From positions 1 to 45,042 of IMG/VR virus record IMGVR_UViG_2563366951_000002: 45,042 nt of DNA. One strand, written 5' to 3'. The notes under the pieces were generated by a model. The model made no database searches. It was given only the letters and a program-made list of their open reading frames with translations, and was not told the origin of the DNA. The position numbers were made by a program, and so were the translations under genes. This document shows positions 28,280 to 28,295 of this stretch, piece by piece. Each line of letters starts with the position of its first letter. The first letter of the stretch is position 1. Origin of the DNA: a virus. Its lineage: Duplodnaviria > Heunggongvirae > Uroviricota > Caudoviricetes.

Positions 28280-28295
28280 GGCCCCGAAAGGGGCC
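28280..28295 (+). promoter_or_regulatory. GC-rich GNRA-type hairpin after the capsid gene
   Basis: GGCCCC GAAA GGGGCC, perfect 6-bp stem with GAAA loop, no U-tract. Confidence 0.4.

What the first reader, a model, noticed from the sequence alone, without database searches (positions are those of the whole stretch)
28280..28295. Stable GNRA-tetraloop hairpin immediately after the putative major capsid gene
GGCCCC-GAAA-GGGGCC lies 11 nt after the capsid stop codon with no U-tract. Such hairpins after capsid genes often stabilise the upstream message or partially attenuate downstream genes, setting capsid-to-minor-protein ratios.
Basis: seen in the sequence. Interest (0 to 1): 0.2.

Follow-up and report, generated by a model that had tools for sequence, protein, structure and literature searches.

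The report
Conserved RNA hairpin after capsid gene
A short, very stable RNA hairpin sits right after the major capsid gene of a lambda-like prophage and is kept in related phages; it most likely protects the capsid message from decay rather than stopping transcription, which is a familiar arrangement in phages.

Summary
GGCCCC-GAAA-GGGGCC lies at 28280-28295 (+). It starts at the 11th nt after the TGA of a confirmed major capsid gene (27328-28269), has no T in the 8 nt after the stem, and is followed directly by the SD and ATG (28311) of the next gene.

A hairpin this stable is not rare in 45 kb. However, it fills the only real non-coding gap in the packaging-to-tail-chaperone gene block. An equivalent hairpin follows the capsid stop in 39 of 43 Enterobacterales prophage relatives, against 4.4% of control windows. 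There are 49 distinct stem/loop sequences, and 24 have sense-strand GNRA loops. The hairpin stays with the capsid gene when the downstream gene changes.

Some relatives add a U-tract, making a canonical terminator; this lineage does not. The window encodes a lambda-type Q antiterminator with a PR'/tR'-like region, so the hairpin lies inside an antiterminated late operon.

Best reading (about 0.45): a malE-malF-like 3' protective stem-loop that stabilises the cement and capsid mRNA segment. Rivals are a leaky terminator or pause site, and a translational insulator. No expression data exist. This is a new member of a known kind, of low interest.

The parts
28280..28295 (+). RNA hairpin: 6 G-C pairs (28280-28285 with 28290-28295) and a GAAA (GNRA) tetraloop at 28286-28289
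   Evidence: conserved in relatives
27328..28269 (+). Major capsid protein gene (313 aa) whose 3' end carries the hairpin
   Evidence: PF09950 E = 4e-81; phrog_264 major head protein
28267..28272 (+). Tandem in-frame stop codons TGA TAA ending the capsid gene, 10 nt (from the TGA) before the stem
26810..27316 (+). Cement/decoration protein gene, the other high-copy gene just upstream. Under the proposed model it lies on the stabilised mRNA segment
   Evidence: PF23982 and PF22758; phrog_563
28297..28313 (+). Shine-Dalgarno-like AAGGGA (28297-28302) and the ATG (28311-28313) of the next gene, starting 2 nt after the stem. The SD is not sequestered by the hairpin
28311..28700 (+). Downstream small coiled-coil protein gene (129 aa, phrog_2619, function unknown). 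It is the first of the low-copy head-completion and neck genes
   Evidence: homologues follow the capsid gene in most relatives
17676..18299 (+). Lambda-type Q antiterminator gene, which places the hairpin inside an antiterminated late operon
   Evidence: PF03589 E = 9e-58; phrog_127 E = 2e-82
18342..18432 (+). PR'-like promoter match (18342-18370) followed by a strong U-tract terminator (18404-18432, 13-bp stem). This is a tR'-like arrangement upstream of the lysis, terminase, head and tail genes

Best explanation
The hairpin is a selected, sense-strand RNA structure at the 3' end of the capsid cistron, inside a long Q-antiterminated late transcript.

Proposed mechanism (inferred):
1. Q-loaded RNA polymerase transcribes through the site, and the hairpin folds behind it.
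2. The distal, less heavily translated neck and tail part of the transcript is cut by endonucleases such as RNase E.
3. 3'-to-5' exonucleases (PNPase, RNase II) chew back and stall at the GC-rich GNRA-capped stem.
4. The upstream cement and capsid segment therefore outlives the downstream genes and gives more protein.

This is the malE-malF style of differential decay. The element is not an intrinsic terminator in this lineage.

Shown here: the structure, its position, its conservation, its loop bias, its lack of a U-tract, and the Q context. Inferred: the decay pathway and its effect on protein ratios.
For: 1. The hairpin sits in the only true non-coding gap of the packaging-to-tail-chaperone gene block, at the boundary between the cement and capsid genes and the neck genes.
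2. It is conserved in position. All 80 near-identical IMG/VR loci have a hairpin there, one of them with a stem mismatch. So do 39 of 43 Enterobacterales GTDB loci (my tally), and all 80 loci of a 73-77% identity sister clade. Only 4.4% of control windows have one.
3. There are 49 distinct hairpins with different stems (GGCCCC, AGCCCC, GCGGCCC, GGCGGG, CCCCGCC), each still giving at least 5-6 pairs. Every stem position shows several pair types. A sequence-based (MAFFT) alignment shows G-C to A-U double changes at the outer pair in 9 of 29 sequences.
4. Loops are GNRA on the sense strand in 24 of 49 hairpins and vary within that family (GAAA, GCAA, GCGA, GTAA, GGAA, GAGA). Only 3 are GNRA on the antisense strand. 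This points to an RNA made from the + strand.
5. The U-tract comes and goes between sister lineages while the hairpin stays. Both kinds sit in Q-type late operons (window; L175; SEN34). Q-lambda precludes terminator hairpin formation at the polymerase (PMC9388147).
6. The hairpin stays with the capsid 3' end when the next gene is a different one (L101, L105, L126, L128).
7. SD strengths of the capsid gene and its low-copy neighbours are similar (-6.1 against -5.3 to -6.5 kcal/mol), so translation initiation signals alone do not obviously set the ratio.
8. The mechanism is established in Enterobacteria for malEFG and many other operons (PMC5927463).
Against: There is no RNA-seq, 3'-end or half-life data for this phage or any relative, so the functional step is wholly inferred.

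A 6-bp stem is at the short end of what is expected to stall PNPase or RNase II, and RNase R can degrade through structure (my own knowledge; not checked here).

Relatives in non-enteric hosts do without the hairpin, although they keep the same two flanking genes.

T-runs follow the hairpin in roughly a third of the distinct variants. This suggests that termination is selected in some lineages, so the ancestral or main role could be termination.

The covariation evidence is partly circular. I picked the best hairpin in each locus, and C-run/G-run stems still pair 70% when slid by one position.
Confidence: 0.45

Rival explanations
1. Leaky transcription terminator or pause site (attenuator). 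A fraction of polymerases stop or pause at the hairpin, lowering transcription of the neck and tail genes relative to the capsid gene.
For: The homologous position carries canonical hairpin-plus-U-tract terminators in sister prophages (L104, L110-L115, L127, L128). The same is true in distant phages with the same module: KpV79 (annotated there as a rho-independent terminator) and LAPP1, KLPPOU148, RHEph06 and Vibrio 1.173.O. SPP1 has a predicted terminator at 8775-8815, right after its capsid gene, which ends at 8777 (PMC6316719). The stems here look like terminator stems (GCCCC...GGGGC). Inefficient terminators are used to balance expression in T7 and LUZ7 (10.1101/2022.03.18.484859).
Against: This copy has 0 T in the 8 nt after the stem. 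The purine-rich AGAAGGGA would give a stable RNA:DNA hybrid (inference). The window's own terminators at 18404, 20074 and 38270 all have T-runs. The operon is Q-antiterminated, and Q-lambda blocks terminator hairpin formation (PMC9388147). Essential tail genes follow, with no above-chance promoter match.
Confidence: 0.2
2. Translational insulator. The stable stem between the capsid stop and the next SD stops ribosomes that finish the heavily translated capsid gene from re-initiating on the low-copy downstream gene. The two genes are thereby uncoupled.
For: The element lies exactly between the stop codon and the SD, 10 nt after the TGA and 2 nt before the SD. Relatives without a hairpin have the next gene's SD and ATG directly abutting the capsid stop, with 5-20 nt gaps such as TAAGGAG..ATG. 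This role would need no U-tract, which fits the U-less class.
Against: It does not explain why many relatives add a U-tract. It also does not explain why the hairpin stays next to the capsid stop when about 35 nt and an inserted gene follow (L101, L105). The SD itself is left free. No direct evidence exists.
Confidence: 0.15
3. No current function: a decaying remnant of an ancestral terminator, or a chance palindrome.
For: A hairpin this stable is expected 4-5 times by chance in 45 kb. It matches no Rfam family. Non-enteric relatives lack it.
Against: It is maintained across lineages with 58-100% capsid identity, with 49 different sequences that all still pair and with sense-strand GNRA loops. 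Only 1 of 80 near-identical loci carries a weakening mismatch.
Confidence: 0.1
4. Binding site for a specific RNA-binding protein (a boxB-like GNRA hairpin), or a DNA-level palindrome bound by a protein.
For: The short GC stem capped by a GNRA loop resembles lambda boxB in outline (my own knowledge). The loop family is conserved.
Against: boxB loops are pentaloops, are paired with a boxA, and sit in early operons. Here the loops are tetraloops, no boxA-like CGCTCTT is visible upstream, and the site is in the late operon. Stem sequences vary freely, and some lineages have non-GNRA loops. The sense/antisense loop asymmetry argues against a DNA palindrome.
Confidence: 0.05

Closest known systems
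Protective 3' stem-loops in polycistronic mRNAs (malE-malF intergenic structure; differential operon decay in E. coli, Salmonella and Enterobacter, PMC5927463; 'selective RNA processing and stabilization' operons, PMC4423207)
   Same: A stable stem-loop lies just 3' of the cistron needed in highest amount, inside an operon, in an enterobacterial host. It is conserved across relatives and needs no U-tract.
   Different: The malE-malF element is made of repeated REP sequences, whereas this is a single-copy 16-nt hairpin. Most E. coli cases lie inside the downstream coding region, whereas this one is intergenic. No decay data exist here.
[quoted passage not shown]
   Same: Same position, between the head genes and the head-completion and tail genes. 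It has the same GC-rich stem style and lies in the same single-promoter late operon as in P22/L. Sister lineages of this very phage group carry the full terminator form.
   Different: This copy lacks the U-tract that defines an intrinsic terminator, and the SD of the next gene occupies that place.
Lambda/P22 boxB (nut-site) hairpins
   Same: A 5-6 bp GC-rich stem capped by a GNRA-type loop.
   Different: boxB has a pentaloop, needs boxA, and acts in early operons with N. None of these holds here. The resemblance is in shape only.

Membership tests
Intrinsic (Rho-independent) terminator | GC-rich stem-loop | tested here: met
   6 G-C pairs, -13.3 kcal/mol
Intrinsic (Rho-independent) terminator | U-rich tract of about 7-9 nt immediately 3' of the stem | tested here: not met
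   The tail is AGAAGGGA, with 0 T in 8 nt. The + strand scan did not call it, although it called 20074 and 38270.
Intrinsic (Rho-independent) terminator | Measured release of transcripts at the site | not testable with these tools
   This needs in vitro transcription or Term-seq.
Protective 3' stem-loop of a differentially decaying operon (malE-malF type) | Stable structure directly 3' of the more abundant cistron within one transcription unit | tested here: met
   It lies between the capsid and neck genes. Genes are co-oriented and tightly packed from 21301 to 32760, downstream of Q and a PR'-like region. A single transcription unit is inferred, not measured.
Protective 3' stem-loop of a differentially decaying operon (malE-malF type) | Evolutionary conservation of the structure | tested here: met
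   39 of 43 enteric loci against 4.4% of controls; 49 distinct sequences
Protective 3' stem-loop of a differentially decaying operon (malE-malF type) | RNA 3' ends at the structure and a longer half-life of the upstream segment | not testable with these tools
   No transcriptome data were found for this phage group.
REP/BIME repeated extragenic palindromes | Many copies per genome of a roughly 35-nt imperfect palindrome | tested here: not met
   There is one copy in the window even when 3 mismatches are allowed, and it is only 16 nt long.
boxB / nut site | GNRA-like pentaloop hairpin with an upstream boxA in an early operon | tested here: not met
   It has a tetraloop, no boxA-like sequence in the 40 nt upstream, and a late-operon location.
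Any curated RNA family (Rfam 15) | Match at the gathering score | tested here: not met
   0 matches in the whole window
RNase III processing site | About 20 bp of double-stranded RNA | tested here: not met
   The stem is 6 bp and no extension is possible, because the flanking bases are C and A.

The most novel reading that the evidence does not exclude
The U-tract-less, GNRA-capped form is not just a passive exonuclease barrier. It would be a dedicated cis-element read by a factor, either a host or phage RNA-binding protein or the product of the adjacent small coiled-coil gene. That factor would switch expression between the head and neck/tail halves of Q-antiterminated late operons. This would give a function to the 'intra-operon terminators of unknown role' noted in lambdoid phages.
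Probability: 0.05. Interest if true: 0.5.

Novelty: new member of a known kind. Interest (0 to 1): 0.2.

Why it matters
Tailed phages need hundreds of capsid subunits for every dozen neck proteins made from one late transcript. How that ratio is set in lambdoid phages is only partly understood. The phage L/P22 genome paper states that the roles of terminator-like hairpins inside the late operon are 'not known' (PMC8022706).

In this phage group the hairpin is the conserved part and the U-tract is optional, and the operon is antiterminated. This points to a post-transcriptional role and gives a clean natural series for testing it: the same site with and without a U-tract. It is a small refinement of a familiar theme, not a new mechanism.

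Tried and rejected
- Rfam gathering scan of the whole window: no match. tRNA/tmRNA scan: none.
- Repeat-element idea (REP-like): there is a single copy even with 3 mismatches.
- Minus-strand terminator. The scanner flagged the reverse complement with the tail TTCTGGTTAT. The corresponding A-rich stretch upstream of the hairpin is not kept in relatives, all neighbouring genes are on the + strand, and minus-strand promoter matches are at chance level. Rejected.
- Stop-codon readthrough or frameshift stimulator. The TGA is followed by an in-frame TAA, relatives use TAA, and there is no slippery site. Rejected.
- boxB/nut site and RNase III site: defining features not met (see the membership table).
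- RNAalifold on a plain MAFFT alignment gave only a weak 4-pair consensus (-0.72 kcal/mol), because stems of different length fall out of register.
- An in-register count pairs 270 of 270 cells. This is circular, because I chose the best hairpin per locus, and sliding by one position still pairs 70% because of the C-run and G-run arms. I therefore rely on the enrichment over control windows instead.
- I tried to see whether hairpin-less relatives lack a Q-type regulator. The BgManors32 annotation is mostly 'hypothetical protein', so this was uninformative.
- Literature searches found no experiment on a hairpin of this phage group.

Full report
**What is there.** The window reads ...GGTATC TGA TAA CCAGAAC GGCCCC GAAA GGGGCC AGAAGGGAACTGAAA ATG.... 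The stem arms are 28280-28285 and 28290-28295, and the loop GAAA is 28286-28289. The upstream ORF (27328-28269) stops at TGA 28267-28269, with an in-frame TAA right behind it. The next ORF starts at ATG 28311 and is preceded by AAGGGA two nt after the stem. The isolated hairpin scores -13.3 kcal/mol. It appears in both the MFE and the centroid fold of the surrounding 101 nt (z = -2.97). The 8 nt after the stem contain no T.

**The genes around it.**
- 27328-28269 is a major capsid protein: PF09950 E = 4e-81 and phrog_264.
- The gene upstream is a cement/decoration protein (26810-27316; PF23982, PF22758). Before it come a DUF2213 protease-like protein, a Mu-F-like head protein, the portal and the terminase.
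- Downstream come a small coiled-coil protein of unknown function (28311-28700, phrog_2619), a DUF4054 protein, a neck protein, a head-tail protein, and the tail sheath (30542-31702).

The hairpin therefore sits exactly where high-copy head genes give way to low-copy neck genes.

Gaps between genes from 21301 to 32582 are 16 nt or less, or are overlaps. The exception is this 41-nt gap. The apparent 177-nt gap before the tape-measure gene is coding. A T TTT TTG slippery site at 32531-32537 opens a -1 frame that runs to 32770, which is a G/GT-type frameshift.

**What the phage is.** The region is 97.6% identical to Citrobacter phage Omnitron and 89% identical to Salmonella phage SEN34 (Brunovirus). 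Regulation is lambda-like:
- A Q antiterminator lies at 17676-18299 (PF03589 E = 9e-58, phrog_127).
- It is followed by a promoter match at 18342-18370 and a 13-bp terminator with a U-tract at 18404-18432.
- A second terminator lies at 18691-18708. Then come holin, endolysin, spanin, terminase, head and tail genes, all on the + strand.
- SEN34 is annotated the same way: a Q-like gene, then the lysis genes, then terminase across the record origin.

The hairpin therefore lies inside a long late operon that needs Q. Q-lambda forms a nozzle on the RNA-exit channel that precludes terminator hairpin formation (PMC9388147).

**Is it more than chance?** Taken alone, no. The + strand has 14 simple hairpins at least this stable, and dinucleotide shuffles give 4.5 +/- 2.4. 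The evidence comes from position and conservation.
- All 80 closest IMG/VR loci have a hairpin at this site; one has a stem mismatch.
- Among 80 species-representative prophage loci with 54-98% capsid identity, a hairpin of -10 kcal/mol or better lies within 60 nt of the capsid stop in 40. Among control windows from the same loci, 214 of 4835 (4.4%) have one.
- By host (my tally, using a -9.5 kcal/mol cut-off and a start within 35 nt of the stop), the count is 39 of 43 Enterobacterales loci but only 3 of 37 others.
- A further 80 loci of a sister clade all have one.

In total there are 49 distinct hairpins. Stems differ (GGCCCC, AGCCCC, GCGGCCC, GGCGGG, CCCCGCC and others) while still pairing. 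The outer pair switches G-C to A-U by double change in 9 of 29 sequences in a sequence-based (MAFFT) alignment. 24 of the 49 have a GNRA loop on the sense strand, varying within that family, and 3 have UNCG. Only 3 would be GNRA on the other strand. That asymmetry argues for an RNA read from the + strand and against a DNA palindrome.

**Which gene does it belong to?** The order capsid, then small protein, then DUF4054 is kept in relatives both with and without the hairpin. In L101 and L105 another gene is inserted after the hairpin. In L126 and L128 the small gene is missing and DUF4054 follows. In each case the hairpin stays 3-13 nt after the capsid stop. It is therefore a 3' element of the capsid cistron.

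**Terminator or not?** Roughly a third of the distinct variants are followed by a T-run and are textbook terminators (for example AGCCCCT-TCAC-AGGGGCT-TTTTTC). The rest, including this window, have the next gene's SD in that place. More distant phages with the same head module have canonical terminators there: KpV79 (where it is annotated as such), LAPP1, KLPPOU148, RHEph06 and a Vibrio phage. A U-tract-bearing relative (L175) also has a Q-like gene upstream of its lysis, terminase and head genes. The hairpin is therefore the constant feature and the U-tract is optional, and both forms live in antiterminated operons. GNRA loops go mostly with the U-less form (21 of 24), while 12 of 25 non-GNRA hairpins have a U-tract. 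These counts are not phylogenetically independent. The window's own terminators at 18404, 20074 and 38270 all carry T-runs, so the absence of one here is not a general habit of this genome.

**Most likely mechanism.** I favour a protective 3' stem-loop, as described for malE-malF and for many E. coli, Salmonella and Enterobacter operons. There, endonuclease cuts in the less-translated distal part expose it to 3'-5' exonucleases, which stop at a stable structure and leave the proximal cistron intact (PMC5927463). A related scheme sets subunit stoichiometry in Clostridium (PMC4423207). This model fits the position, the indifference to a U-tract, the selection for very stable loops, the Q context, and the similar SD strengths of the capsid and neighbouring genes. 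The model is inferred; no RNA data exist.

The rivals are these:
- A leaky terminator or pause site. This is favoured by the homologous terminators in relatives and disfavoured by the missing U-tract and by Q.
- A translational insulator between the capsid stop and the next SD. This is favoured by hairpin-less relatives, in which the next gene abuts the stop.
- A functionless remnant. This is disfavoured by the conservation.
- A protein-binding hairpin. It is boxB-like in shape only.

**Comparison with what is known.** Terminator-like hairpins after capsid genes are familiar. Examples are T7 T-phi (my own knowledge), the SPP1 predicted terminator at 8775-8815 just after gene 13 (PMC6316719), and P22/L. 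[quoted passage not shown] Inefficient terminators that balance expression are documented for T7 and LUZ7 (10.1101/2022.03.18.484859). This hairpin fails the U-tract criterion for an intrinsic terminator. It meets the testable criteria for a protective 3' stem-loop. It matches no Rfam family and is not a repeated element.

**Verdict.** It is a new member of a known kind and of low interest. It has some value as a natural with/without-U-tract series for testing what intra-operon hairpins do in lambdoid late operons.

Noticed in passing
window 32531-32770: Candidate G/GT-type -1 programmed frameshift. The slippery heptamer T TTT TTG (32531-32537) lies in the frame of the tail chaperone gene (32157-32582), and the -1 frame is open to 32770, overlapping the tape-measure start at 32760. 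A strong hairpin (32664-32691, -18.9 kcal/mol) lies inside the extension, too far downstream to be the usual frameshift stimulator.
   Followed up: partly
window 17676-18708: Lambda-type Q antiterminator gene, followed by a promoter-like site (18342-18370) and two U-tract terminators (18404-18432 and 18691-18708) before the lysis genes. This is a PR'/tR'-like late switch in a phage with a contractile-tail (sheath) module.
   Followed up: partly
window 37409-38289: Phd-like antitoxin (37409-37840) and Fic/Doc toxin (37840-38247) inserted inside the tail/baseplate gene block, followed by a canonical terminator (38270-38289). This looks like a moron.
   Followed up: partly
window 20074-20746: A canonical terminator (20074-20096) lies after the spanin gene. 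It is followed by a KilA-N/ORF11CD3 protein gene (20195-20746) and a 554-nt stretch with no long ORF before the small terminase gene.
   Followed up: no
window 36994-37344: A 116-aa ORF with a signal-peptide or lipoprotein-like N-terminus (MGKAKLLICGVLLSVVGTSEALA...) and no Pfam match, between tail genes. It is possibly another moron.
   Followed up: no
L256 (SEN34, NC_028699.1) 7057-7458: The RefSeq annotation starts the gene after the capsid gene at an ATG created by a C-to-T change at the base of the hairpin (GAATGGCCCC). The annotated CDS therefore runs through the hairpin. The window and other relatives lack that ATG and share the downstream SD and ATG, so the SEN34 start is probably called 11 codons too early.
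   Followed up: partly
L095-L174 (GTDB prophage relatives): The post-capsid hairpin is present in 39 of 43 Enterobacterales loci but in only 3 of 37 loci from Acinetobacter, Pseudomonas, Cupriavidus, Burkholderia, Dyella and others. In those, the same downstream gene starts 5-20 nt after the capsid stop. The reason is unknown.
   Followed up: partly
L026 (IMG/VR relative), hairpin position: This is the only one of 80 near-identical loci with a weakened stem (GGCCCC-GAAA-AGGGCC, one mismatch).
   Followed up: no
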